The position numbers were made by a program, and so were the translations under genes. A stretch of DNA of 64,000 nt. It comes from a virus. Its lineage: Duplodnaviria > Caudoviricetes. The stretch is taken from IMG/VR virus record IMGVR_UViG_3300037067_012588; one strand, 5' to 3'. Below, piece after piece: positions 19,748 through 59,719 of the stretch. Position 1 is the stretch's first letter; every line of letters starts with the position of its first letter. The notes beneath the pieces are model-generated. The model was not told where the DNA came from. It worked only from the letters and a program-made list of their open reading frames with translations, and searched no databases.

Positions 19748-21142
19748 TCAAAGACGAGCGTTATGACGAACCTGATCGAAGTTATAACATGTGACGATTT
19801 TTCCGTCTTCAAACACGGTAACAAGATCATCCTTACGACCGTTCAACTCGCTTGCCAATATGGTCTTATAAACACCATCCTCTTTTACAAGAGCCATACG
19901 ACCCTTCTTGCTTGTCTTCGTCTTGTCAACAGGGTCCTTGAAAATGTCATACCACTTCCCATCACGGCACTGTGCGCAGCTTTTGAACGCAAACCGTTGA
20001 GTGTCACGGTTCACCTTCTGGAGGAGTCCGCCGCCCATGCCGAAGCAAGCAATATTTTCAATACTCCATCCAGCGTTTTTCATCGCAAACATGATATCAT
20101 AAATCATGTCGAAATTCAAACCATCGCCCCACAAGAGACGAATCTTCGGATTCAAAGTTTTGAATCCCTTACTGTTAACGATGAATCCGAACTTTGCCCC
20201 AAGAATATCAAGACACCTCAATACCGTGCTGACGGGGTCTCCGCTATCAGGGCGAACCACAAACACGCCATCACGAGCAAGAATTTCTTCACGCAACACG
20301 CCGCCAATAATATTCTCGCAATAATTGAAGATGTCATAGCTATCTCCAACATCGCTCAAGATACCCCTCGGGAACTTCTTGAGAAGCTGACGGACAATAT
20401 CAACCTCACCATCCTTGCCAAGAGCCGTTTTTACGCTGTGTTCGCTCGCAGGTACACTGAACCCGCAAACGTCTGCCCCGTAATAATACTCAGCATACTC
20501 AATTCCACGAATGGTATCTGTTCCGTTGAAGTTAATCAGGTGAGCCATGCCGCCCAATCCCGCACTCTCAACACTGCTGACGCCACGATACCCGAAATCA
20601 TGAAGCATCCACGGCAAACCAGCGTCACTGTCAGCCGTCTCATGAAGGAATCGCTGGATTTGTTCCTTGACCTTGCGACTCAACGTTGCGACCGTGCTTG
20701 TATACCAAACGTGTGTGAGAATGGTTTCGAGATAATTCGTCAACGGAGCACACTTCGGATCGGTATTCACAACTGTCATCAGGATGTTGCTGTTTGGAAC
20801 GACTGTCCCTTCAGGAACCGCACGAATACGAACTGGCAAACAACCATCGTGATTCTTCAGAATGTGCTCCCACATGTCCCGATTGAACATCGTATCATCG
20901 CCGTTGAAATACTTCTTATAGAACTCGGCAGCATGCTCAATCTTTCCACGGGTAACAACCTGACCCACGAAGTATTGCGTGAGAATCGGCTGCAATCCAG
21001 CAAAGACAGTATAGCTGTATTTCGCACCATTCCTTGCCTCGAAATAGCTTTCAAGGTATTCTGTGCCCTCTGGAAGCATCTTCCAGTGGCCGGGCTTGTA
21101 ACCATCGGTTCCCAAAATCACATTGAACGGTGGAATAATCAT
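19748..21142 (-). CDS. nadV: nicotinamide phosphoribosyltransferase
   Basis: TDGYK.GH, LHDFGYRG, SVPASEHS, DSYD, VRPDSGDP, GMGGGLLQKVNRDT. Confidence 0.93.
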   Translation of the reverse strand: MIIPPFNVILGTDGYKPGHWKMLPEGTEYLESYFEARNGAKYSYTVFAGLQPILTQYFVGQVVTRGKIEHAAEFYKKYFNGDDTMFNRDMWEHILKNHDGCLPVRIRAVPEGTVVPNSNILMTVVNTDPKCAPLTNYLETILTHVWYTSTVATLSRKVKEQIQRFLHETADSDAGLPWMLHDFGYRGVSSVESAGLGGMAHLINFNGTDTIRGIEYAEYYYGADVCGFSVPASEHSVKTALGKDGEVDIVRQLLKKFPRGILSDVGDSYDIFNYCENIIGGVLREEILARDGVFVVRPDSGDPVSTVLRCLDILGAKFGFIVNSKGFKTLNPKIRLLWGDGLNFDMIYDIMFAMKNAGWSIENIACFGMGGGLLQKVNRDTQRFAFKSCAQCRDGKWYDIFKDPVDKTKTSKKGRMALVKEDGVYKTILASELNGRKDDLVTVFEDGKIVTCYNFDQVRHNARL

Positions 21143-24187: not shown

Positions 24188-25159
24188 TCACTTTTCCTTT
24201 GGAGGATACGGAATAACCTGCCCGTCTGTCCAACCAGTCGCCTTCTCTTCCCGCTTGGCAAAGCGAAGTTTGGACTTGGCGCACAATATCTTCAACAGCG
24301 GACGGTGTTCGGCAACCAAATCACTCTCGTGAATATCAGCCGCCTCAAACCAGCGCAGCTCGAAAATGTCATCATCGGGTGTCGGGATACCAAACGTGTG
24401 CTCAGCCTCGAACAAACACGTCATAATCTTGTCCATCTCCCGACGATACCGCCAATCATCAACAATATGGCTGCCAAGAAATTGCGGCTCGCTGATTTCG
24501 ATATGAGCTTCTTCCTGAACCTCACGACGTGCCGAGACCTCCAGCGTCTCGCACTGGACGAACCCACCAATGAATCGGAAAAGGGTTTCCTCTTTCTTCC
24601 GAGCCATCAGAAGCCTCTTGTGGTCTGTATCCCAGATTGCGACATCAATCGTCGGGATACTGCGAGGGTATTGATTGTATGCCGCCCAGATTACACCCGC
24701 ACGAAACAACGGGTCAGCCTTGACTTCGGTGCTGATTTTGGTACGAATCTCAGCACCACTGATATAGGATTCCTGTTCAAGTTCGCATGTCGAATACCGC
24801 CCCGTATACCCATCAATGCACGATTCCCGACCGCCATAAATGACGACCGTTTTGCCGGGTCCAACAAGGTCACTGATTTGGCTGTCGAGACTCTTGCTCC
24901 AAACTTCATCACGGGCAACATCCTTGATATAGAGGACATTGGCCGTGGGAAACTGGTCAAGAATCATTTGCTTGCGACTCTCGAAGTCGAGAGGGTTGTT
25001 TCGGGTAACACGGCACGGGGAAAGCCCAAGAAAAATGAGAACCTTGCTATGGGCTTTGACAACAGAACCGATGAGGTTGAGGTGAGCTTCGTGAAGGTCG
25101 TCGACTTGGAACCTGCCGACTAAAACACCAACATCTGCCTTGGGCAGTTTTGGTTGCAT
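24188..25159 (-). CDS. nadM: bifunctional NMN adenylyltransferase / ADP-ribose Nudix hydrolase (NadM-Nudix)
   Basis: VGRFQ...HEAH, NPL, SGAEIR; C-terminal GGF...REVQEE. Confidence 0.9.
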   Translation of the reverse strand: MQPKLPKADVGVLVGRFQVDDLHEAHLNLIGSVVKAHSKVLIFLGLSPCRVTRNNPLDFESRKQMILDQFPTANVLYIKDVARDEVWSKSLDSQISDLVGPGKTVVIYGGRESCIDGYTGRYSTCELEQESYISGAEIRTKISTEVKADPLFRAGVIWAAYNQYPRSIPTIDVAIWDTDHKRLLMARKKEETLFRFIGGFVQCETLEVSARREVQEEAHIEISEPQFLGSHIVDDWRYRREMDKIMTCLFEAEHTFGIPTPDDDIFELRWFEAADIHESDLVAEHRPLLKILCAKSKLRFAKREEKATGWTDGQVIPYPPKEK

Positions 25160-29574: not shown

Positions 29575-29797
29575 CTTCAATCTCCTGATAATCTTCACAT
29601 ACTCCGCCACCCTCTGGATGAATCGGGCTACGTCTCTGCTTCCCGTTCAGCATCCCGCCAATAACCCATTCTCCATCCTTGCAGAAGGTACACTCAAATA
29701 TGTGCCCAGATGCCGAACTACCCATACAAACAAAGCCATCAAAACCATCACACCTTGTTTGCCAAAAGCACCACGGGACTGCGTTTTCCTTCGTCAT
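29564..29797 (-). CDS. small Cys-rich hypothetical protein
   Basis: ATGA overlap with thyX. Confidence 0.55.
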   Translation of the reverse strand: MTKENAVPWCFWQTRCDGFDGFVCMGSSASGHIFECTFCKDGEWVIGGMLNGKQRRSPIHPEGGGVCEDYQEIEDDD

Positions 29798-31269
29798 TGA
29801 TATACCTCGATATCGTCAAACAATGGCTTCGCCCATACAAGAAGCTGCTTGTGAATCATCTCACAAACCTCCCGAATCTGAGGATGCGCTGCCTTGGATG
29901 TGCGAAGCTTCATGATGTGCCGCCACTCACGAGCATTCGTCGTAACAACGAGCTCAGTCTTCAAACACGTCGGTAACACAGAACGTGCAATTTGTGGCGT
30001 ACAACCACGATCAAGCATATCACCATATAAAACCTCTGCTTGAGACATAGCTTCGCCCCAAACCCAAGAAGCCTCCTCGCAATTTACTGGAAACGGAGGA
30101 ACAATACACTGAACACGACCAACACCACAATCACGAAGCTCTATTGGACGCCCAATTGCTCTTAAAGCCCTTGATGTTTTTTCTGGATGACCGTATGGCC
30201 AATTGAAGTTCGAATACATCTTTTCACAAAGATGTTTTGCCCTAGAAGGAGTGCAAACACTAATCCTCCACAAATCGTCACAGCCGTGAACCTTGACAAC
30301 AGAGCAAGTGTTTCCAAACTCTTTCTCTAAGAAACCGGCAATATGGCCAATCAAGAACTTGTTCCCATTCCAACAAATATTTACAGACTCTGTTTTTCCT
30401 TGGTTTTTCTGCTCAAAAAACCGAAGACTACCATCACCATCCAAAAGACCACGCATAAAATCAAGCCTGAAGTCTCTGACACTTTCCCACAAACTACCAA
30501 CCTCTTCCTCTGACCACTCAAAAGACTTCCTTGGCCGAATGCCGTGACGATACAAATCTTCCCATAACTCTTTGGATGTTATAGTATATTGTTTACAAGA
30601 TCCATCTTTGTACCCAGACACTTGTGGGTGTATAAAGTCAGAAACAAATTGTTTTATAAACCATCCATCTTTTTGTGTTATGGATAATGATTGCCCATTA
30701 TCTCTCATTGACCCATCTGCTGCAAACATCCCAAGAAACCAAGCCTTTTCTGGACTATCTATAACACTCATGAAATCGTGAATAACTTTTCCATGATTGT
30801 TCTTTGACCTGATACTTACTCCTCCCTCAATCAATGCATTCCGAACATCCCACTCTGTCATGATTCCATTACTTATCTCTGAAATCTTTCTCATTGAAAG
30901 ACCATCTTCATAGAGCTTGCAAACAGTCTCCTCGTTGAATGCAATAACCTTGTCTTTGTAACGAACATACCTTGTCGACTCCTGCGCAAAACTCGGAATA
31001 CGGTGGCGAACGAACTCGTGCGTCACGCCCCTGTCTGTGATGATATGAAAGCTCGCCGAAACATGCTCGATCATCGCAGTATGGTCACGTTCGACAAGAC
31101 CACGAACAAACTTCTCAGCACGCTCACGACAAGCTGGACACTTCCCATCTTTGCATTCGCACGTCATTTTTTCTTCGGACTTGTAACAAACACGACCGAT
31201 ACGCTCAATCGTGAAGATTGGCTCTTCTGTGGCCCAAATCAAACTGACTGACGGCTCAACAATCTTCAT
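29794..31269 (-). CDS. thyX: flavin-dependent thymidylate synthase with an in-frame LAGLIDADG insertion
   Basis: HEFVRHR..SFAQESTRY, ARSVLP, NAREWRH, AHPQIR. Confidence 0.9.
   Translation of the reverse strand: MKIVEPSVSLIWATEEPIFTIERIGRVCYKSEEKMTCECKDGKCPACRERAEKFVRGLVERDHTAMIEHVSASFHIITDRGVTHEFVRHRIPSFAQESTRYVRYKDKVIAFNEETVCKLYEDGLSMRKISEISNGIMTEWDVRNALIEGGVSIRSKNNHGKVIHDFMSVIDSPEKAWFLGMFAADGSMRDNGQSLSITQKDGWFIKQFVSDFIHPQVSGYKDGSCKQYTITSKELWEDLYRHGIRPRKSFEWSEEEVGSLWESVRDFRLDFMRGLLDGDGSLRFFEQKNQGKTESVNICWNGNKFLIGHIAGFLEKEFGNTCSVVKVHGCDDLWRISVCTPSRAKHLCEKMYSNFNWPYGHPEKTSRALRAIGRPIELRDCGVGRVQCIVPPFPVNCEEASWVWGEAMSQAEVLYGDMLDRGCTPQIARSVLPTCLKTELVVTTNAREWRHIMKLRTSKAAHPQIREVCEMIHKQLLVWAKPLFDDIEVYQ
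30130..30950 (-). mobile_element. HTH plus double-motif LAGLIDADG homing endonuclease inserted in thyX (boundaries approximate)
   Basis: AWFLGMFAADGS and DFMRGLLDGDGS; appears more AT-rich than the flanks. Confidence 0.8.
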
Positions 31270-47236: not shown

Positions 47237-48127
47237 TCAATGGATTCCGTTACGAGACAAAACATCCCTGATTTCCATCAGTGTCTTCCTGTCCACATCG
47301 ACAGACGAAACCATGCTGCTCAGCGAGCCATAATGCTGCTCAAGAACATTCAACAGCAGACCTTTGATTTTCTCCTCATCAGGTCCATACGGCAACTTGC
47401 TTTCGTTGTACAGAACATCAAGCGACTTCTCCTTCTCCGAGAAATACTCCTTGATGCGTTCCTCCGTCCACTCGCCACGACGGATTGACTTCAAAATCTC
47501 ACTATTCCTGTCAAGCTCAAGGTCGCCCTCGGAAAGAATCTGCTCGCACTCAAGCATCAAACGAACAACGTGGTAGGCAAACTTCACGTCAAATCCGAAC
47601 TCCTGAACGTTGGCATGACGCTTGGAGCCTTCCTTCGGCTGCTTGATACTCATTTTGTGAATTTGTTGGTATGCGTACCCTCGGAATTTATGGAAACATC
47701 CCTTGTGGAGAAACAGTTTCCGATTCTCACGGAAAATCTCCGACAGACTCGTCGAATGAATAACGCAACGAGTCGGCACAAACAGAGAATCCAGCATGTT
47801 CGGGTTATTCTGCATCACAAGGTCAACAAACCGTGCGACACCGTAGACGGCGAAATCATACTGCTTGTCATGCTGCTTGTCGTCAACATGATGCTGCTGC
47901 CAGCAAGTGAAGTCTTGCGGCTCACGCCCGAACCCACGGATATGCCCAGCGAGATGCGGGAACAGATATTCCTTCGGCGGGATGCACCATCCGTACAGGT
48001 CCATATCCGAGCTTCCACCCGAACAGCCATAGGCAACACTACCCATTTGCACAAGGTAGTGCGTATTGGTCGGTAGGAACGATGGAGGGGAAATCAATCC
48101 CCGCTCTTTCAGATCAACAATCAGCAT
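47237..48127 (-). CDS. predicted nucleotidyltransferase (Pol-beta superfamily, YcgL-like)
   Basis: GSVAYG....SDMD, NNPNMLD, FRGYA, KFAYHVVRL. Confidence 0.82.
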   Translation of the reverse strand: MLIVDLKERGLISPPSFLPTNTHYLVQMGSVAYGCSGGSSDMDLYGWCIPPKEYLFPHLAGHIRGFGREPQDFTCWQQHHVDDKQHDKQYDFAVYGVARFVDLVMQNNPNMLDSLFVPTRCVIHSTSLSEIFRENRKLFLHKGCFHKFRGYAYQQIHKMSIKQPKEGSKRHANVQEFGFDVKFAYHVVRLMLECEQILSEGDLELDRNSEILKSIRRGEWTEERIKEYFSEKEKSLDVLYNESKLPYGPDEEKIKGLLLNVLEQHYGSLSSMVSSVDVDRKTLMEIRDVLSRNGIH

Positions 48128-49002: not shown

Positions 49003-49189
49003 TCTCGCCCCCCGAGATAATGTGCTCCATCAGAAACGGACAACCTTGTGGAACACCGCCATCGTATTCCCCAAGAAATCTTAAATCTTCCACAAGAGTG
49101 CAAATGGTCGGACTACAAAACTCATTCGCCTCAAAGAGGCTATGGCATTTTCCTCTCTTGCAAATACCATAGTTGATTTCAGAAGTCAA
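48968..49189 (-). CDS. Cys-rich family small protein
   Basis: GICKRGKC ... VPQGCPFLMEHIIS. Confidence 0.72.
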   Translation of the reverse strand: MTSEINYGICKRGKCHSLFEANEFCSPTICTLVEDLRFLGEYDGGVPQGCPFLMEHIISGGENECDKDKPMDL

Positions 49190-49958
49190 AACTTTGCCCT
49201 GCCTCTACAAATCCACAAAAACCATTGTCCTTGGCTGCCTGACGTACTGTCCCTGGCTGATAGTGATACAACCACATCTTCGAGCGGATATCATCACTGA
49301 GGGTTGTAAGGTCTGCAAAATTGGCATGAACACCACTCTTGAAAGGCGATGTTTCGCAGTCTTGGAAAATCACGTCACAGCTTCGATAAAAATCCATGAT
49401 TTGATTCGGAGCAAACTGCGTATCGCTCGTGAAAAACACTTTCGGCTTTTCAGATGAAACACCAATCTCCTGAATAATCAATCCATAGCTATACTTGATG
49501 TGATAGCCAGCCATAACGTGAACCGTCTGAACAGGAATAAACGTAATTCCCTCCCACACGAAGAACGAACTGTTCTCGACAGGGTGACAATCAAAATACT
49601 CAGTTAACGTCACAACCTTCCCCTGAATTGATTCCAGTCCTCCACGGAGAGCCTGCTCCCAAAGCTCGTGCATGAGTTGGGTATTGCAAAACAACCTCGG
49701 GCGTTCAGCGTTCGGATTGAAGTAAGTGCAAAACGCAAGCTCCTCAAGACCACCAACATGGTCAGCATGGAGGTGCGAGACATACACGGCATCAATGTCA
49801 GTGTATTTCAGCCCAAGACCAAGCTTGTCCGCTGTAGTCCAGCAAGTGCTTCCACAGTCAATCAATAACTTCTTGCCAGATGCCGCCGTGATAACAGCAT
49901 TGCTTTGACCATCAAGCTTGTTGAATGCCGACCCAGCTCCGATAAATTGAATCTTCAC
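49179..49958 (-). CDS. metallo-beta-lactamase-fold hydrolase, Apyc1-like
   Basis: GAGSAF, LIDCG, SHLHADHVGGLEE, TSDT, FQDCE, VHA, LYHY. Confidence 0.8.
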   Translation of the reverse strand: MKIQFIGAGSAFNKLDGQSNAVITAASGKKLLIDCGSTCWTTADKLGLGLKYTDIDAVYVSHLHADHVGGLEELAFCTYFNPNAERPRLFCNTQLMHELWEQALRGGLESIQGKVVTLTEYFDCHPVENSSFFVWEGITFIPVQTVHVMAGYHIKYSYGLIIQEIGVSSEKPKVFFTSDTQFAPNQIMDFYRSCDVIFQDCETSPFKSGVHANFADLTTLSDDIRSKMWLYHYQPGTVRQAAKDNGFCGFVEAGQSFDF

Positions 49959-53861: not shown

Positions 53862-55190
53862 TCAGTTTTCTAAAGGCTTGAAAAAAGGACTGGCTATGCC
53901 AGGACTCATCACTGGAACAGTTATCTGAGTCTCTTTGAACACTTCGTCAATCATTTTCGTATCGCCTTTGTAAAACACCAAAATGTTTTGATGCGACTTT
54001 CCAAGACGCCTATATGTTCCAAACTGGCGACGAATACGCATCGGCAACGAACCACCTGCCGTCACAAGCACTGACTCATTATACAGGCGAGCGCCGTATT
54101 CCGAAAAAGCATCTATCGTTTCAGTAACGAGATTCCTATAAAACCCTGAATCATCTCGAACATCTCCAACAACAAAACATGCAAACCTGTTTTCCTTCAA
54201 CCTATCCAAACCCTTCCTGATTACCTCACGATAGGCATTTTTAAAGGAATCCCACCCCATGTTTGTCACATCTTCCTCAAGCGTACTGTAAATCTCCAAG
54301 TCGAAATATGGAGGACATGTGAAGAAGAAATCTGCATCAACATCCTTGGCAATAATATCGAGATCAACACTGTCCCCAATAACCCACTTCGGTTTTGGAT
54401 TACATTCCAATTTATCACCCTGACAAATGTTTGTGGTAATCTGCTCAGGTCGGATATCAATTCCAAAATAACCCCGATTGAGAGCACAGGCAACAATACC
54501 ACGAACAGAGCTCCCACAGAATGGGTCAAGAACAAGACCACCTTCTGGACAATATAGTCTATAAAGCGTCTCACAAAGAACAGGATCAAAAGAACTTCCG
54601 ACCTTTCCTCCACGGATGTTGACATCTTTGTCTTTTGATGTTGAACCCATTCCAAATCCGCCGTCAACGCCGCTCGAAATCCACGCATCCTTTCGACGCT
54701 TCCACTCTGGAAGTCTCGCATCAAACAAAGACGAACCATGATATATTGCTGGCTCCTCAAGAACGCTTTTCTCAGATTTCCCTCGCAAAACTGACTGCTC
54801 AACAACCTGTTGAAGATCATCAAACAAAAGCATATTCGTCAAATCGCTATCAACAGCACGAACATGTTCCATCAAATCGATAACCTCTTCAGTCCAAGCT
54901 CCTTCAATTTTTGGATTATTCAACGCAACATTGAGAGTCTTCTCCATCGAGTCATCAAGGTCAACCTCAATGACATCAAGCTCTTTCTTTCCAGCCGCTT
55001 GCATGACTTTTAGTCGTTGATGTCCTCCAACGACATTCCCAGTTCTCTTATTCCAAATGATAGGTTCAACTAATCCAAATCGAGAAATAGAAGCCTCAAG
55101 ACCAGCAAGGGCTCGCTCAGATATTTTCCTCGGATTATAACCTGCAGGATTCAACGCCTCAATCGGAACCCGAACCATCTTGACAAACAT
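53862..55190 (-). CDS. ParB-N domain plus DNA amino-methyltransferase (motif I before motif IV)
   Basis: YNPR...VGGHQR; VLDPFCGSSVRG; FTCPPY. Confidence 0.85.
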   Translation of the reverse strand: MFVKMVRVPIEALNPAGYNPRKISERALAGLEASISRFGLVEPIIWNKRTGNVVGGHQRLKVMQAAGKKELDVIEVDLDDSMEKTLNVALNNPKIEGAWTEEVIDLMEHVRAVDSDLTNMLLFDDLQQVVEQSVLRGKSEKSVLEEPAIYHGSSLFDARLPEWKRRKDAWISSGVDGGFGMGSTSKDKDVNIRGGKVGSSFDPVLCETLYRLYCPEGGLVLDPFCGSSVRGIVACALNRGYFGIDIRPEQITTNICQGDKLECNPKPKWVIGDSVDLDIIAKDVDADFFFTCPPYFDLEIYSTLEEDVTNMGWDSFKNAYREVIRKGLDRLKENRFACFVVGDVRDDSGFYRNLVTETIDAFSEYGARLYNESVLVTAGGSLPMRIRRQFGTYRRLGKSHQNILVFYKGDTKMIDEVFKETQITVPVMSPGIASPFFKPLEN

Positions 55191-55200
55191 AACGCCCTCA

Positions 55201-57210
55201 CTATTCCAATTCAACCAACTCCAAAGTCTCTGTCGGGTCAGCAACAAGTGTCTGCTCCAAACCAGAAAGGTCCATCGCACCAAACTCTGACTTTATTGTT
55301 TTCGGTTCGCCCTTGAAAAAAACCAAAAGACTCTTGTGAACACAAATTCCTTTTCTTCCAAGTTTTCCCTTTATCCATGGCTTATCTTGCAAGAAAATAG
55401 CCTCATTGTAAAGCCTCATACCTTGACTCTCAAATGCCTTGATTATCTTTCCAGAAAGACAAGACGAGAAGCCATCCTCATTCTCTACATCCTCAAAAAG
55501 AACACAAGCCATTCTCCCATCTTTGAGGTTTTTTACAGCAGCTTCTATCTTTCCGTAAATCTCTTCCGTGAATACGTTTACCTTCGGGACAACCATGACA
55601 ACCATATCTGACGCTTCCTCTGGAATCTCTGTCTTCCATAGAGGGGTCTGCGTTTCTTTTTCATTACGAACAACAACTTCTTCATTTCGGAGCCCAACAA
55701 CCCAAAGCAAATCACCGTAATCAAGATATGGCAAACACTTCGCCTCATACGACGAATCTAAAAGAATGTCCCCAATCATATTGCACTCTGCTTTGTCAGC
55801 AGAACATTTTACCAACGTCACCATCTCACGCCATCCAGCAGGCGCATACTGGTTTAACCTCTCATCAGGGTCAACCCCAACAACAACTCCCAAAACAGGA
55901 ATTTCTCTCCCGCTGTCTTTTAACCCATGAAGAATACCAGCCAAAGACATACCAGAACCAACAGGCACAACAATACGACTAACATCAGGAATATTTATTA
56001 CTTGCTCTGCCATCTGTCGTATAAATACATCACTCTCAAGATTAGCAGGAATTTCTGTCCATCCTCTTGCCGCAGCATCCTCTTTGGCTTTCGCAATAGC
56101 ATCAGTAATGAAATCTGTCTGGTGTTGAATGATTTCTGCCCCATGGTTCTTTGCATCCAAAAGCTCAGACGTCATATCACCCTTGTTGGTGTGAACACGA
56201 CAAGGAACTCCCAGACGACCAGCAATACGTGCGACAATGCCACTCAGGGGCGATGTAAGCCCCACAGCAGCGACGACACCACAAGAACCACTGCAAAGCT
56301 CTACACAGGCTCTAGCCTTCGCTCCACGGGCATTTGCTACGCAATACAAGTCATCTCGCTTCACAATGAACTCATCAACCATCTGAATCGGAGTAATGTC
56401 TTCTGTGTTGTCACTCAAATACCGTTTTGTCTTGACAGAAGCAAACACATCGATATTTCTCTTCGACTGTTTCTCGCTTGTCGTTATTCCAATATATTTT
56501 CCACCAGAAATTCCCGTCGCTATACCCCAAGACGGATCATCACCATACAAGTCAAGAACCGTTCCACCAGAAGGACAAAACCACTCAAGCAACAAAGAAG
56601 GAAGAACTGGATCATTGTCTCCACAAATACCATTCCGAACCATTTCTGCACGACGTTCTCTCCAATATGGCTTCCTCTGGTCAAGAGTTGTAAGTGGAGG
56701 AACTGAAAGTAATTCGTTTTCCGTGTCGGGATGAGTCTCTTCTTCTTCATTTTCTTCTGGCGGCGTATCTCCATCTCCACCTTCTTCACTCGCATCTTTC
56801 TTTTTCTCTTCTCCTCCGAGGGATTTCAAGAGATCATCAATACGAACAGCCTGAAACATCTCCGGCAATTCATCACCAATCTCCTGCAAAAGACTTCGAG
56901 TCGAATCATCCCAATCACCCCTTACGGCAGGACTATTCAACGTTATATTGAGAGCAATCTCATGAGTCTCGTCCATATCAACCTCAACAACATCTGTTTC
57001 AACAACACCCATCTCATTAAGAACTTTACATCTCTGATGCCCACCAACAACATTTCCAGTCCTCTTATTCCATACAATAGGCTCAACGAAACCGAACTTC
57101 GTAATTGACTCACGAAGTCCTGCAAAAGAGTTTGCATCGATTGTTCTTGGATTATAGTCGGAAGGCAAAAGGTCTTTGACAAACTTCCTAACCAAAACAA
57201 TATCTTTCAT
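55201..57210 (-). CDS. ParB-N plus degenerate methyltransferase with an inserted PLP fold-II enzyme domain
   Basis: YNPR..GGHQR; VLDLYGDD; IVKRDD...GAKAR; VPVGSGMSLAG; LDSSYEAK; RLYNEAI...LVFFKG matching the paralog. Confidence 0.8.
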   Translation of the reverse strand: MKDIVLVRKFVKDLLPSDYNPRTIDANSFAGLRESITKFGFVEPIVWNKRTGNVVGGHQRCKVLNEMGVVETDVVEVDMDETHEIALNITLNSPAVRGDWDDSTRSLLQEIGDELPEMFQAVRIDDLLKSLGGEEKKKDASEEGGDGDTPPEENEEEETHPDTENELLSVPPLTTLDQRKPYWRERRAEMVRNGICGDNDPVLPSLLLEWFCPSGGTVLDLYGDDPSWGIATGISGGKYIGITTSEKQSKRNIDVFASVKTKRYLSDNTEDITPIQMVDEFIVKRDDLYCVANARGAKARACVELCSGSCGVVAAVGLTSPLSGIVARIAGRLGVPCRVHTNKGDMTSELLDAKNHGAEIIQHQTDFITDAIAKAKEDAAARGWTEIPANLESDVFIRQMAEQVINIPDVSRIVVPVGSGMSLAGILHGLKDSGREIPVLGVVVGVDPDERLNQYAPAGWREMVTLVKCSADKAECNMIGDILLDSSYEAKCLPYLDYGDLLWVVGLRNEEVVVRNEKETQTPLWKTEIPEEASDMVVMVVPKVNVFTEEIYGKIEAAVKNLKDGRMACVLFEDVENEDGFSSCLSGKIIKAFESQGMRLYNEAIFLQDKPWIKGKLGRKGICVHKSLLVFFKGEPKTIKSEFGAMDLSGLEQTLVADPTETLELVELE

Positions 57211-57302
57211 TCCGTTGCTCCAACAATCGGAGTCAACTGCTGCCAGTCGCACCCCTCACCATGAACATACTCAGCCCAACGTTTTCGAATCACATCACAA
57301 TA
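57197..57302. repeat. direct repeat A, copy 1 (about 106 bp; copy 2 at 58531-58636)
   Basis: Near-identical DNA encoding YCDVIRKRWAEYVHGEGCDWQQLTPI.GATE plus the next start MKDIV. Confidence 0.9.
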
Positions 57303-58544
57303 CTTCGTACTCAACTCCATTCCTCTGCCAAGTCGACCAGTAATCTCTGCGGCCATAATCGTTGTTCCCGACCCACAAAAACTATCAAATACAACATCAC
57401 CCTCATTTGAACTATTCTTCATTTGCTGTGTGAATAATTCTACGGGTTTTGTTGTAGGGTGATCTGCACTTCTTGCTGGTTTTTTGTAATCAAAAACGGT
57501 GGTCATTTTTCGTCCACCATTCCAACAATGTGCAGCCCCTTCTTTCCAACCATAAAGACAAGGATCATATTCAGGTTCATATCCTTTCTTCGACTTGTCT
57601 TGCTCTGGAACTTGTGACTCATCAGCAACCTTGTCTCCGTTCCATGTCACTTCTCCACCAAGCTTATGACCATATAAGCAAGGCTCATGTTTCTGTTGAT
57701 AATTCGACCAACCCAGAACCATAGTGTTTTTATTCCAAATTAATACCTGTCTGTTGTCCCAACCACAAGACTTCATAGCTAAAAAGAAATTCAAAGTCTC
57801 TGAATCACTATACCAAATATAATACACAGCACCAGGCTTCATGACACTGTCCGCAGCTTTATATGCCGAAGTAAGGAACTGCAAAAAATCATCATCGCTC
57901 ATTTTATCATTGGCAATCTTCAGGGCATCCTTTGTTTTTCCGACATAGGCAACATTGTACGGAGGGTCGGTCAACCAAAGACTAACGAGTTCTCCATTCA
58001 TAAGCTTTTTGACATCATCTTCCTTTGTCGATGAACCACACATTAACCTGTGATCCCCTAAACGATAAACTTCGCCCTCTTTGCTCTCTGGAGTCTTTGG
58101 AACTACTGGTATTGCGTCTGGATCAGTATGTCCCTTCTTGTCCTCACCAGGAAACATCTTCCCCAAATCATTCAACATAACCGACTTGTAAAGTTCTGGA
58201 AGCTCTCCTTCTACTCTCTCAAGTAAGTCGCCAATATTATCTGTCCAGTCTCCTTGAATAGCTGGGTTGTTTAACGTGACATTCAAAGCAATCTCTTCAT
58301 TCTCAGGCATGTCAACAACAACAACCGTTGTCTCTTCGACACCCTGCGCTGTTAAGACCTTGAACCTCTGATGCCCACCAACAATGTTTCCTGTCTGTTT
58401 GTTCCAGACAATAGGCTCAACTAAACCGAACCTCGTAATCGAAGAGGTCAAACCTGCAAGAGCTTCCTTTGATATAGACCTCGGGTTATAAGAAGCTGGC
58501 GTGATATCCGCCAGCTTCTTTGTTTCCCATACAATATCTTTCAT
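57207..58544 (-). CDS. ParB-N plus N6/N4 DNA methyltransferase (beta-class order)
   Basis: HRLMCG, TDPPYNV, HPTTKPV, DSFCGSGTT. Confidence 0.92.
   Translation of the reverse strand: MKDIVWETKKLADITPASYNPRSISKEALAGLTSSITRFGLVEPIVWNKQTGNIVGGHQRFKVLTAQGVEETTVVVVDMPENEEIALNVTLNNPAIQGDWTDNIGDLLERVEGELPELYKSVMLNDLGKMFPGEDKKGHTDPDAIPVVPKTPESKEGEVYRLGDHRLMCGSSTKEDDVKKLMNGELVSLWLTDPPYNVAYVGKTKDALKIANDKMSDDDFLQFLTSAYKAADSVMKPGAVYYIWYSDSETLNFFLAMKSCGWDNRQVLIWNKNTMVLGWSNYQQKHEPCLYGHKLGGEVTWNGDKVADESQVPEQDKSKKGYEPEYDPCLYGWKEGAAHCWNGGRKMTTVFDYKKPARSADHPTTKPVELFTQQMKNSSNEGDVVFDSFCGSGTTIMAAEITGRLGRGMELSTKYCDVIRKRWAEYVHGEGCDWQQLTPIVGATE
58399..58529. repeat. direct repeat B, copy 1 (about 131 bp; copy 2 at 59559-59689)
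   Basis: Near-identical DNA encoding WETKKLADITPASYNPR...EPIVWNK. Confidence 0.9.
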
Positions 58545-59719
58545 TCTGTTGCTCCAATAATCGGGGTCAACTGCTGCCAGTCGCACCCCTCACCATGAAC
58601 ATATTCAGCCCAACGTTTTCGAATCACATCGCAATAGGATGTATTTAGCTCTATAGCACAACATTTTCTTTCAAGTTTTTCACAAGCTATCAATGTAGAA
58701 CCAGAACCGCAAAATGGTTCGAATACCAAACCACTTGTCCAGCCAACAACTTCTTCCATTAGCGATACTGGTTTCTCTGTAGGATGGAGATTGTTTCCAC
58801 TCCTATCATGTAGCACCAAGTCCGAAGGACGCTTACCCGTCCAAAAATGATTCTTACCCAAATAGAACAGACATACTTCAGTCTGCCTTCCATGTTCATG
58901 CTCCAAGTCACCCATAGACCAATTATTTTTTGCCCATGTAATGAGACTTTTAGGCATTGGCACATCTACCAAGTTATTCCAACGACACCACAGATATTTG
59001 GAATGTTCAGCTTCCAATCCTGTTGCCCAAACCAAAAGCTTGGCGTCTTCATCCCCTGCAATCTTTTCATGTTTCGCTGTTCCCTTACGATGTCCACTCT
59101 GGAACGCCATCCCATAAGGAGGGTCTGATACAACTGACCCTATAACTTGCCCGTCCAAAACTCTCTTCATATTTTCAGGACTTGAGCAATCACCACACAA
59201 AAGACGATGATCACCCAATTGGTACATTTCACCAACCTGACTTATCACGTCTTTTTGTGGCTCAGGTATGTCATCCTCGTTTTTCTTAGATTTTCTTGCG
59301 CTCGTATGCCCAAGAGCCTTCTCAAGGTCATCCAGTTTTACAGAATTGAAAAGGTCTGGAAGTTCCTCATTAATCATTTTTAGAAGATCACCAGTTCCTT
59401 CTGTCCAATCTCCCTGAATAGCTGGATTGTTTAACGTGATGTTGAGGGCAATTTCTTCGTTCTCAGGCATGTCAATTACGACAACCGTTGTCTCATCAAT
59501 ACCTTGTTCTGACAACACCTTGAATCGTTGATGTCCACCGACGATATTACCAGTTCTCTTGTTCCAGACAATAGGCTCAACTAAGCCAAACCTCGTAATC
59601 GAAGAGGTCAAACCTGCAAGGGCTTCCTTTGATATAGACCTTGGGTTATAAGAAGCTGGCGTGATATCTGCCAGCTTCTTTGTTTCCCACACCAAATCAC
59701 CAATAGTTTTTTTCGACAC
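58541..59719 (-). CDS. ParB-N plus N6/N4 DNA methyltransferase (beta-class order)
   Basis: HRLLCGD, SDPPYG, HPTEKPV, EPFCGSGST. Confidence 0.92.
   Translation of the reverse strand: MSKKTIGDLVWETKKLADITPASYNPRSISKEALAGLTSSITRFGLVEPIVWNKRTGNIVGGHQRFKVLSEQGIDETTVVVIDMPENEEIALNITLNNPAIQGDWTEGTGDLLKMINEELPDLFNSVKLDDLEKALGHTSARKSKKNEDDIPEPQKDVISQVGEMYQLGDHRLLCGDCSSPENMKRVLDGQVIGSVVSDPPYGMAFQSGHRKGTAKHEKIAGDEDAKLLVWATGLEAEHSKYLWCRWNNLVDVPMPKSLITWAKNNWSMGDLEHEHGRQTEVCLFYLGKNHFWTGKRPSDLVLHDRSGNNLHPTEKPVSLMEEVVGWTSGLVFEPFCGSGSTLIACEKLERKCCAIELNTSYCDVIRKRWAEYVHGEGCDWQQLTPIIGATE

What the first reader, a model, noticed from the sequence alone, without database searches (positions are those of the whole stretch)
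55201..57210. PLP-dependent enzyme inserted in a catalytically eroded ParB-methyltransferase: candidate DNA hypermodification enzyme
Seen: this protein aligns with its neighbour 53862-55190 on both sides, but motif I (DPFCGS to DLYGDD) and motif IV (TCPPY to MVVPKV) are eroded. About 240 aa (roughly 55690-56400) of an ACC-deaminase/D-Cys-desulfhydrase-like domain sit between them, with the PLP Lys (KRDD...GAKAR) and phosphate loop (VGSGMSLAG) intact. Established: PLP enzymes act as decarboxylases in phage thymidine hypermodification pathways. Inference: the dead MTase scaffold and ParB-N target DNA, and the PLP domain tailors an amino-acid-like adduct, possibly installed by the adjacent CPPY-motif transferase (e.g. 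aminocarboxypropyl from SAM).
Basis: partly seen in the sequence, partly recalled or inferred. Interest (0 to 1): 0.8.

Follow-up and report, generated by a model that had tools for sequence, protein, structure and literature searches.

The report
Dead phage methylase carrying PLP enzyme
A giant phage encodes a DNA-binding methyltransferase that has lost its methylase active site but carries, nested inside it, a vitamin-B6 (PLP) enzyme related to those that trim amino acids attached to phage DNA; it probably helps the intact methylase-like gene next door make an unstudied DNA mark.

Summary
The gene at 55201-57210 (-) encodes ParB_N, then a class-I methyltransferase fold split by a 255-aa fold-type II PLP domain.

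- **Methylase part is dead.** Motifs I, II and III are substituted, and the CPPY motif IV loop is degenerate and partly deleted.
- **PLP cofactor residues are kept.** These are Lys312, the GSGMS loop and Tyr502-Glu503.
- **It belongs to a large unstudied phage family.** About 316 clusters match at E<1e-30. In that family the PLP domain is nested in, or encoded beside, a 'CPPY' N6/N4 methyltransferase. Cultured examples are Pam4 gp70 and mycobacteriophage Vincenzo gp1+gp2.
- **The dead scaffold is rare.** Of 163 full-length members, only this protein, its ortholog in a related 253-kb phage, and one protein of different architecture lack both motifs.
- **The PLP domain resembles proven DNA-acting enzymes.** It matches phrog_3650, the family of ViI gp226, a proven decarboxylase of amino-acid adducts on DNA.
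- **It may pair with its neighbour.** A heterodimer model with the intact CPPY neighbour (53862-55190) scored ipSAE 0.83, against 0.00 for the best control.

Best reading: a PLP 'tailoring' subunit docked to an active transferase. The chemistry (SAM-derived aminocarboxypropyl, then aminopropyl) is inference only.

Caveat: this copy has lost three family substrate-loop motifs.

The scan found this family before on other DNA.

The parts
55201..57210 (-). Whole gene (P0001/P0006, 669 aa from ATG 57210): ParB_N, then a dead CPPY-type MTase scaffold with a nested PLP domain
   Evidence: AF2 model mean pLDDT 84
56878..57210 (-). ParB_N domain (aa 15-125, GGHQR motif), 46-60% identical to the ParB_N of the three neighbouring MTases
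   Evidence: PHROG 620 E 9e-27, Pfam ParB_N weak; pairwise identities
56428..56706 (-). N-terminal half of the MTase fold. It includes degenerate motif I (DLYGDDPSWG, 56524-56553) and a lost motif II Asp
   Evidence: class-I MTase fold by VIA-align (Trm11 6zxv Z 16.4, rmsd 2.5 A, 162 aligned)
55663..56427 (-). Inserted fold-type II PLP domain (aa 276-530). Key residues: Schiff-base Lys312 (56317-56319), phosphate loop 430-439 (55936-55965), Tyr502-Glu503 (55744-55749)
   Evidence: Pfam PALP 1.6e-13; phrog_3650 1.4e-20; hhalign to DcyD; 1j0a Z 23.8; Foldseek 4d9f E 7e-12
55204..55662 (-). C-terminal half of the MTase fold. Motif III is lost, motif IV is degenerate (MVVPKV, about 55579-55608), and roughly 17 aa after it are deleted. 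This half carries most of the predicted dimer interface
53862..55190 (-). Adjacent intact ParB_N + CPPY-type N6/N4 MTase (P0002; DPFCGSS, TCPPY). Candidate catalytic partner
   Evidence: Pfam; 6394+ relatives; sits inside the PLP-less clade; complex model ipSAE 0.83 vs best control 0.00; RBS and ATG 10 nt after the P0001 stop
57207..58544 (-). Upstream ParB_N + beta-class DPPY MTase (P0003), translationally coupled to P0001 (ATGA)
58541..59719 (-). First ParB_N + beta-class DPPY MTase of the four-gene array (P0004)

Best explanation
P0001 is best read as a pseudo-methyltransferase that serves as the PLP 'tailoring' subunit of a phage DNA-modification module.

Proposed roles of the parts:
- The ParB_N domain and the degenerate MTase fold no longer bind SAM or flip a base. 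They are kept for DNA targeting and for pairing, through the usual MTase dimer face, with the adjacent intact CPPY-type ParB-MTase (P0002).
- The nested PLP domain belongs to the phage clade that includes ViI gp226 and M6 gp52. Those enzymes decarboxylate amino-acid moieties attached to bases in polymeric DNA.
- Together the two gene products would reproduce, in two chains, what most family members do in one chain (MTase with nested PLP domain), or what Vincenzo-like phages do with separate genes.

Shown here:
- The architecture, the loss of the MTase motifs, and the retention of the PLP cofactor residues.
- Homology to the DNA-acting PLP enzymes.
- The recurrent fusion or adjacency with CPPY MTases.

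Inferred:
- That the pair acts on DNA beyond plain methylation.
- Least certain of all, that the CPPY enzyme transfers the 3-amino-3-carboxypropyl part of SAM to a base and the PLP domain decarboxylates it to aminopropyl. The alternative order is that the PLP domain first makes decarboxy-SAM.
For: Dead scaffold:
- No PF01555 hit.
- Motifs I to IV are lost, while they are near-invariant in 119 relatives.
- The scaffold is only about 31% identical to any CPPY core, whereas normal PLP-family and PLP-less cores are 55-64% identical to each other.
- It sits on a long branch of 2.1, against a median of 0.42.

Still under selection:
- The ORF is intact.
- An ortholog, P0007, with the same deletions lies in the same gene order (NrdD, MTase, PLP gene, CPPY MTase) in a 253-kb phage contig.
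- The PLP domain is 50% identical to the family, against 29-35% for the MTase halves.

PLP clade:
- phrog_3650 E 1.4e-20, with ViI gp226 as its archetype.
- hhalign of the family vs ViI gp226: probability 95.7%. Vs Vincenzo gp2: 99.8%. Vs M6 gp52: 60%.
- Motifs YE[AG]K and LW[IV]VG are shared across the clade, this copy included. SPQ and GYN are clade motifs that this copy has lost (SPL, DFI) but its ortholog P0007 keeps.
- The decarboxylase activities of ViI gp226 and M6 gp52 on DNA are reported in PMC8989533.
- An Atlas viral cluster that fuses this fold to ADDT/aGPT-Pplase aligns at TM 0.84.

Link to the CPPY MTase:
- 142 of 163 full-length members have both motifs flanking the PLP domain.
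- Stand-alone PLP genes lie next to uninterrupted CPPY MTases.

Pairing:
- ipSAE 0.83, best control 0.00. That mark was reached by 58 of 80 solved complexes and 2 of 110 mismatched pairs.
- Runs agree in at least 75% of contacts, and partner pLDDT is at least 73.
- The interface is scaffold to scaffold.
- Interface columns keep the family consensus in 47% of cases, against 31% elsewhere (p 0.046).
Against: - No chemistry is shown.
- About 6400 CPPY MTases have no PLP partner yet have nearly the same core, and PLP-less forms nest among PLP forms in the tree. The core may therefore simply methylate.
- This copy's PLP domain has lost 24 of 102 conserved columns. These include the SPQ (now SPL), GYN (now DFI) and FGMEC (now ANLES) loops that its ortholog keeps. 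It may have a changed specificity or reduced activity.
- The complex pass may reflect memory of solved homodimeric beta-class MTases, and it does not exclude homodimers.
- No PLP-domain residue is among the confident contacts.
- No 5-hmdU kinase or amino-acid:DNA transferase, the partners of ViI gp226 and M6 gp52, was seen among the window genes scanned.
Confidence: 0.5

Rival explanations
1. Plain methylation with a PLP helper. The CPPY enzymes are ordinary N4-C or N6-A methyltransferases. The PLP domain acts on a small molecule near the enzyme, for example removing S-adenosylhomocysteine or degrading or remodelling SAM by ACC-deaminase-like chemistry on the aminobutyryl moiety. It does not act on a DNA adduct.
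For: - PLP-less and PLP-bearing cores are 55-64% identical and interleaved in the tree.
- The PLP domain carries the ACC-deaminase-type Tyr-Glu pair (PMC3344862, PMC4048297).
- The insertion lies between motifs II and III, on the cofactor side of the fold (consensus).
Against: - The nearest characterised relatives act on DNA-bound amino acids, not free metabolites.
- In P0001 the SAM-binding motifs of its own scaffold are gone, yet the PLP cofactor residues are kept.
- Some members carry further tailoring-type domains in the same insertion site.
Confidence: 0.22
2. A decaying paralog. P0001 is a relic of a once-bifunctional enzyme. Both catalytic parts are inactive, and at most it keeps a DNA-binding or structural role via ParB_N.
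For: - All MTase motifs are lost.
- 24% of conserved PLP-domain columns are lost, including three substrate-loop motifs.
- It has the longest branch in the tree.
Against: - A 669-aa ORF without stops, translationally coupled on both sides.
- The ortholog is kept in synteny at 49% identity, with the PLP domain 93% conserved at family-invariant columns.
- Lys312, the phosphate loop and Tyr-Glu are retained.
- The identical protein was seen in a second sample.
Confidence: 0.15
3. An auxiliary metabolic enzyme. The PLP domain is a true ACC deaminase, D-cysteine desulfhydrase or threonine dehydratase acting on host metabolites, fused by chance to a dead methylase.
For: Best PDB matches are DcyD, ACCD and threonine dehydratases. 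JGI names several relatives 'ACC deaminase/D-cysteine desulfhydrase'.
Against: - NCBIfam scores are far below every equivalog cut-off, e.g. 26 vs 317 bits.
- The domain is about 70 residues shorter than those enzymes.
- It is found almost only in viruses, and always with a CPPY MTase.
Confidence: 0.05

Closest known systems
ViI gp226 (phrog_3650) and M6 gp52 (phrog_7093): PLP-dependent decarboxylases of amino-acid:thymine conjugates in phage DNA (Lee et al. 2021, PMC8989533)
   Same: - Compact (about 255-420 aa) ACC-deaminase-like fold-type II PLP fold.
- Aligned Schiff-base Lys and phosphate loop.
- Shared Y-E/D-x-K and LW[IV]VG motifs.
- phrog_3650 hit at E 1.4e-20.
- ViI gp226 was modelled by its authors on the same template (1j0a) that is the best structural match here.
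   Different: - The partner genes are not a 5-hmdU kinase plus aGPT-Pplase, but a SAM-dependent CPPY N6/N4 MTase.
- Here the domain is nested inside an MTase fold.
- This copy lacks the SPQ and GYN motifs shared by ViI gp226 and the rest of the family.
- Substrate and reaction are unknown.
Pseudanabaena phage Pam4 gp70 and several hundred metagenomic ParB_N-MTase[PLP] proteins (annotated only as 'pyridoxal-phosphate dependent enzyme' or 'DNA modification methylase')
   Same: Same three-part architecture and the same insertion point between motifs II and III. 31-45% identity over aa 200-683.
   Different: Those proteins keep DPFAGGS and (S/T)CPPY. P0001 and its ortholog P0007 have lost both and have a 17-aa deletion after motif IV.
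Mycobacterium phage Vincenzo/AlanGrant gp1 + gp2 (cluster B4), a split version of the module
   Same: gp1 is a ParB_N + CPPY MTase (hhalign probability 100%). gp2 is a stand-alone PLP protein of this clade (probability 99.8%). The genes are adjacent, as P0002 and P0001 are here.
   Different: gp2 has no MTase scaffold or ParB_N. The genes sit next to the terminase of a 72-kb siphovirus, not in a four-MTase array of a jumbo phage. Function is untested, and the annotation ('carboxylate deaminase') is by similarity only.
ACC deaminase / D-cysteine desulfhydrase (1j0a, 1rqx, 4d8t)
   Same: Fold (Z 22-24). Lys51, Ser78 and Tyr294 equivalents. A Glu after the Tyr, as in true ACC deaminases (PMC3344862).
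   Different: About 70 residues shorter. The Leu322 or Thr315 position is Gly. NCBIfam cut-offs are missed by a wide margin. Viral, and MTase-linked.
Pseudo-enzyme partners of methyltransferases (e.g. METTL14 with METTL3; own knowledge)
   Same: An MTase-fold paralog without a working SAM site, predicted to pair with an active paralog through the MTase fold.
   Different: Here the dead subunit carries a second, different catalytic domain. Pairing is predicted only.

Membership tests
Phage PLP-dependent DNA-adduct decarboxylases (ViI gp226 / phrog_3650; M6 gp52 / phrog_7093) | Sequence match to the family profile | tested here: met
   The window PLP domain hits phrog_3650 at E 1.4e-20 (profile positions 18-241 of 392). 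ViI gp226 hits the same profile at E 2.5e-241. hhalign of family A1 vs ViI gp226: probability 95.7%. Vs M6 gp52: only 60%.
Phage PLP-dependent DNA-adduct decarboxylases (ViI gp226 / phrog_3650; M6 gp52 / phrog_7093) | Schiff-base Lys, phosphate-binding Gly loop, and Tyr followed by an acidic residue | tested here: met
   K312, VGSGMS 431-436 and Y502-E503 align with the corresponding residues of ViI gp226, M6 gp52 and Vincenzo gp2.
Phage PLP-dependent DNA-adduct decarboxylases (ViI gp226 / phrog_3650; M6 gp52 / phrog_7093) | Clade-specific loop motifs SPQ and GYN (shared by ViI gp226, Vincenzo gp2 and the MTase-nested family) | tested here: not met
   P0001 has SPL and DFI. Its ortholog P0007 keeps SPQ and GYN. 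Pam4 gp70 also lacks GYN.
Phage PLP-dependent DNA-adduct decarboxylases (ViI gp226 / phrog_3650; M6 gp52 / phrog_7093) | Co-occurrence with a 5-hmdU DNA kinase and an aGPT-Pplase amino-acid:DNA transferase | tested here: inconclusive
   None was found among the 30 window ORFs scanned. A ThyX is present. Only 64 kb of a 344-kb contig could be read.
Phage PLP-dependent DNA-adduct decarboxylases (ViI gp226 / phrog_3650; M6 gp52 / phrog_7093) | Decarboxylation of an amino acid attached to a base in DNA | not testable with these tools
   Needs enzyme assays and nucleoside LC-MS.
N6/N4 DNA methyltransferase (PF01555), CPPY subgroup | Class-I SAM-MTase fold | tested here: met
   Model residues about 190-650 (insert skipped) align to Trm11, TrmN and Trm14. 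The best is 6zxv: Z 16.4, rmsd 2.5 A, 162 aligned.
N6/N4 DNA methyltransferase (PF01555), CPPY subgroup | Motif I (DPFxGGS) SAM-binding loop and motif II Asp | tested here: not met
   DLYGDDPSWG, and GITT instead of GIDL.
N6/N4 DNA methyltransferase (PF01555), CPPY subgroup | Motif IV, (S/T)CPPY catalytic loop | tested here: not met
   MVVPKV, with adjacent deletions. No PF01555 hit at E<=0.1.
ACC deaminase / D-cysteine desulfhydrase (TIGR01274/TIGR01275) | Key residues Lys51, Ser78, Tyr294/295, Glu295/296 and Leu322 (PMC4048297) | tested here: inconclusive
   The Lys, Ser, Tyr and Glu equivalents are present. The Leu322 position aligns by eye to an invariant Gly, outside the hhalign range.
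ACC deaminase / D-cysteine desulfhydrase (TIGR01274/TIGR01275) | Curated NCBIfam score cut-off | tested here: not met
   P0001 gives no hit to these models. The relative P0016 scores 29 bits against a 289-bit cut-off.
ParB N-terminal domain (PF02195) | Profile match and the GxxR/GGHQR motif | tested here: met
   The Pfam score is below cut-off (15 vs 26.3 bits). However, phrog_620 gives E 9e-27 and Noc/Spo0J give PDB hits. The domain is 46-60% identical to the ParB_N of the three neighbours, which pass Pfam.

The most novel reading that the evidence does not exclude
The CPPY 'methyltransferase' and PLP-domain module installs a SAM-derived amino(carboxy)propyl group on a DNA base, rather than a methyl group, and the PLP enzyme then decarboxylates it on the polymer. 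In this jumbo phage the pathway would run as an obligate heterodimer of an active transferase (P0002) and a pseudo-methylase that carries the PLP enzyme (P0001). That would be a new DNA hypermodification made by a new kind of two-subunit enzyme.
Probability: 0.18. Interest if true: 0.9.

Novelty: new variant of a known kind. Interest (0 to 1): 0.62.

Why it matters
All known PLP steps in DNA hypermodification start from 5-hydroxymethyl-pyrimidines. Here the same PLP clade is wired to SAM-dependent N6/N4 methyltransferase-like enzymes in hundreds of phages, with no paper found on the pairing. This points to an undescribed DNA mark, or at least to an undescribed way of assisting DNA methylation.

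The dead-scaffold copy is a natural separation-of-function allele. It shows that the PLP part is worth keeping without the methylase activity of its own chain, and it suggests that the two activities work in trans.

Cultured phages (Pam4; mycobacteriophages Vincenzo, AlanGrant and relatives) make the question directly testable.

Tried and rejected
- **Recent tandem duplication with reciprocal loss (P0001 vs P0002): rejected.** P0002 and its ortholog sit inside the PLP-less clade. P0001 is no closer to P0002 (27%) than to any other core.
- **Conserved partner genes around normal family members: none found.** Those genes stand alone upstream of terminase or portal genes, or in replication modules.
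- **Literature: nothing on the fusion.** Nine full-text searches were run. Eight looked for the fusion or module (PLP + ParB + MTase, Pam4, ACC deaminase + methylase, aminocarboxypropyl + phage, the CPPY motif, mycobacteriophage carboxylate deaminase, Iyer 2013, and a 2022+ search). The ninth sought the ACC-deaminase key residues. Iyer et al. 2013 is not held.
- **Nucleotide similarity to cultured phages: none**.
- **Whole genome: not held**. Expression and read-level signs of modification could therefore not be examined.
- **Interface-conservation test restricted to columns at least 80% conserved: not significant** (p 0.33 and 0.14).
- **Geometry between the PLP site and the MTase pocket: not measurable**, because model coordinates are not exposed.
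Full report
**What is there.** All genes in this part of the window lie on the minus strand. Four consecutive, tightly packed genes each begin with a ParB_N domain followed by an N6/N4 methyltransferase:
- P0004 (58541-59719) and P0003 (57207-58544) are beta-class DPPY enzymes.
- P0001 (55201-57210) is the finding.
- P0002 (53862-55190) has motif I (DPFCGSS) before motif IV (TCPPY).

P0001's ATG overlaps P0003's stop as ATGA. P0002 starts 10 nt after P0001's stop and has its own GAGG ribosome-binding site.

The surrounding genes mark a jumbo phage: NrdD, a radical-SAM activase-like gene, an Apyc1 anti-Pycsar homologue, NAMPT, ThyX and NUDIX. The database copy of the protein lies on a 344,634-bp contig.

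**Checking the observation.**
- BLASTP of P0001 against P0002 aligns aa 12-267 (32% identity, E 4e-40) and aa 476-657 (25%, E 3e-13). The middle is left unmatched.
- Pfam finds PALP in that middle part (E 1.6e-13). It finds no PF01555 in P0001, although all three neighbours hit PF01555.
- An AlphaFold2 model built on a 66-sequence alignment has mean pLDDT 84.
- Residues 281-531 of the model superpose on the ACC-deaminase homologue 1j0a (Z 23.8, rmsd 3.2 A, 249 aligned), on D-cysteine desulfhydrase (Z 22.9) and on ACC deaminase (Z 22.3).
- Residues about 190-650, skipping the insert, superpose on class-I amino-methyltransferases such as Trm11 (Z 16.4, rmsd 2.5 A, 162 aligned).
- hhalign against E. 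coli DcyD (probability 96.5%) puts K312 on the Schiff-base Lys51, S334 on Ser78, the VPVGSGMSLAG loop on the phosphate loop, and Y502-E503 on Tyr287-Thr288.

A Glu at that last position is the ACC-deaminase state. There it hydrogen-bonds the pyridine nitrogen (PMC3344862, PMC4048297).

**It is a member of a large family, and an odd one.**
- A search with aa 200-683 found 361 relatives among the scored candidates. Nearly all carry PF00291 + PF01555, often with PF02195, on phage-sized contigs.
- An exhaustive phmmer search with the PLP domain alone found 723 cluster representatives, 316 of them at E<1e-30.
- One cultured phage in INPHARED has the full fusion: Pseudanabaena phage Pam4 gp70, annotated only as a PLP-dependent enzyme.
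- In the family alignment, DPFAGGSVRG (motif I) and (S/T)CPPY (motif IV) are near-invariant.
- Of 163 members with complete flanks, 142 match both motifs by strict patterns. Only three lack both: P0001, P0007, and one protein of different architecture.
- P0001 also lacks the motif II Asp and the motif III GDS, and about 17 residues after motif IV are deleted.

P0007 shares the same losses. It lies in the same gene order (NrdD, small ORF, ParB-MTase, PLP gene, CPPY ParB-MTase) on a 253-kb contig. The inactivation therefore predates the split of the two phages, and the gene has been kept since.

Constraint is uneven across the protein:

| Region | P0001 identity to the family | Family mean |
|---|---|---|
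| PLP domain | 50% | 63% |
| MTase N-half | 35% | 58% |
| MTase C-half | 29% | 55% |

In a core-only tree the P0001/P0007 pair sits on a branch about five times the median length.

**Where the scaffold and the neighbour come from.** Normal PLP-family cores are 55-64% identical to PLP-less CPPY methyltransferases. That PLP-less family has more than 6394 hits. P0002 and its ortholog P0126 sit inside the PLP-less clade, and PLP-less sequences are nested among PLP-bearing ones. Two things follow. The insertion is evolutionarily labile. And P0001 and P0002 are not products of a recent duplication with reciprocal loss.

**What the PLP domain is related to.**
- P0001 hits phrog_3650 (E 1.7e-19 for the whole protein, 1.4e-20 for the domain).
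- I fetched ViI gp226 and M6 gp52. These two PLP enzymes were shown biochemically to decarboxylate O-seryl- and C-alpha-glycinyl-thymidine in polymeric DNA (PMC8989533).
- ViI gp226 is the archetype of phrog_3650 (E 2.5e-241), and M6 gp52 of phrog_7093.
- hhalign of the family gives probability 95.7% to ViI gp226 and 60% to M6 gp52.
- It gives 99.8% to gp2 of mycobacteriophage Vincenzo, which itself scores E 2.7e-106 on phrog_3650.
- A joint alignment shows motifs absent from DcyD: SPQ, GYN, YE[AG]K and LW[IV]VG. The phage enzymes share them. P0001 itself keeps only YE[AG]K and LW[IV]VG.
- The ESM Atlas structure search returns viral clusters with PALP + N6_N4_Mtase + ParB_N. It also returns a viral cluster that fuses this fold to ADDT/aGPT-Pplase domains (TM 0.84).

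**The link to the CPPY methyltransferase survives gene fission.**
- Stand-alone PLP proteins of 256-266 aa lie next to uninterrupted CPPY methyltransferases in metagenomic phages (L007, L011). A third (L009) lies next to a PF01555 gene that showed no BLAST similarity to the CPPY cores.
- In Vincenzo, gp1 is a ParB_N + CPPY MTase (hhalign probability 100%), gp2 is the PLP protein, and both sit just upstream of the terminase.
- Some members carry further enzyme domains in the same insertion site: an Asp/Arg hydroxylase-type oxygenase, DUF3109, and weakly an LPG-synthase-C-like domain.

This combinatorial pattern recalls the thymidine hypermodification clusters.

**Does the dead scaffold have a job?** I modelled aa 183-665 of P0001 with aa 165-473 of P0002, each supplied with its alignment.
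- ipSAE was 0.83, and the best of three controls was 0.00.
- In the tool's calibration, that mark was reached by 58 of 80 solved complexes and by 2 of 110 mismatched pairs.
- The runs agree in at least 75% of contacts, and partner pLDDT is at least 73.
- The interface is pseudo-symmetric and scaffold to scaffold: P0001 residues 185-191, 224-225 and 581-665 against P0002 residues 183-186, 243-244 and 367-449.

Solved beta-class methyltransferases are dimers, so the pass may partly be memory of those structures. It shows likeness, not binding. Interface columns of P0001 keep the family consensus somewhat more often than the rest of the scaffold (24/51 vs 51/162, Fisher p 0.046). The difference disappears when only highly conserved columns are counted.

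**A caveat specific to this copy.** P0001 keeps the cofactor-binding residues but only 78 of 102 highly conserved PLP-domain columns. Its ortholog P0007 keeps 95 of 102. Three family loops are changed: TAGSRxSPQVN to AAVGLTSPLSG, GYNSVI to DFITDA, and FGMEC to ANLES. Pam4 gp70, from a viable phage, also lacks GYN, so these changes need not be inactivating. They do allow a changed specificity or an attenuated enzyme.

**Most likely mechanism.**
- *Shown:* a dead MTase fold, a PLP domain of the DNA-adduct-decarboxylase clade, obligatory association of that clade with CPPY methyltransferases, and operon coupling with an intact CPPY enzyme.
- *Inferred:* P0001 supplies PLP chemistry in trans to the product of P0002. 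The ParB_N domains (46-60% identical among the four proteins) would bring all of them to the same DNA. ParB domains have been proposed to direct modification enzymes to DNA at packaging (PMC8256090).
- *Speculative:* the only amino-acid-bearing group a SAM enzyme can donate is 3-amino-3-carboxypropyl, and decarboxylation of that would give an aminopropyl base. Alternatively, the PLP enzyme could make decarboxy-SAM for an aminopropyl transfer. CmoX, which uses carboxy-SAM made by CmoA, is a precedent for a phage methyltransferase homologue that transfers a non-methyl group from a remodelled SAM (PMC12783734; abstract).

The main rival is plain methylation with a small-molecule helper function. 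It is supported by the near identity of PLP-less and PLP-bearing cores.

**Novelty.** Eight full-text searches found nothing on this fusion or module. The scan itself has reported the family several times on other DNA, including the dead-scaffold ortholog in a giant phage. I tested the lead from those notes, that phrog_3650 is the ViI gp226 family, and it holds.

I rate this a new variant of a known kind (phage DNA hypermodification with a PLP tailoring enzyme). This copy is a rare pseudo-methylase form.

Noticed in passing
window 49179-49958 (-): Homologue of the anti-Pycsar phosphodiesterase Apyc1 (Pfam PF23023, E 1.3e-33). An anti-defence gene a few kb from the methylase array.
   Followed up: no
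window 29794-31269 (-): ThyX (Thy1) gene whose match is split in two, with a LAGLIDADG_3 hit in between. Probably an intein or homing-endonuclease insertion. The relative's NrdD (L002:2061-6488) likewise carries an intein/LAGLIDADG.
   Followed up: no
L013:1-2275 (Mycobacterium phage Vincenzo gp1, gp2): A cultured split version of the module. gp1, annotated 'ParB-like partition protein', is a ParB_N + CPPY methyltransferase. gp2, annotated 'carboxylate deaminase' (or 'nucleoside deaminase' in AlanGrant), is the phrog_3650 PLP enzyme. Both annotations look misleading.
   Followed up: partly
proteins P0042, P0051, P0075, P0079, P0089, P0118 (relatives): Extra domains sit in or next to the same insertion site of the methyltransferase: an Asp/Arg beta-hydroxylase-type oxygenase, DUF3109/Rv0495c, and weakly LPG_synthase_C. 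This suggests multi-step tailoring.
   Followed up: partly
window 57197-57302 vs 58531-58636, and the N-termini of P0003 and P0004: The two beta-class ParB-MTases have 84.5% identical ParB_N domains and near-identical C-terminal tails (…CDVIRKRWAEYVHGEGCDWQQLTPI[VI]GATE), but divergent cores. The overlapping out-of-frame N-terminal extensions of P0001 and P0003 are similar for that reason.
   Followed up: no
window 19748-21142 (-), 24188-25159 (-), 47237-48127 (-): NAMPT, a NUDIX hydrolase and an RlaP-type nucleotidyltransferase. This is an NAD-salvage and RNA-repair type gene set, typical of large phages.
   Followed up: no
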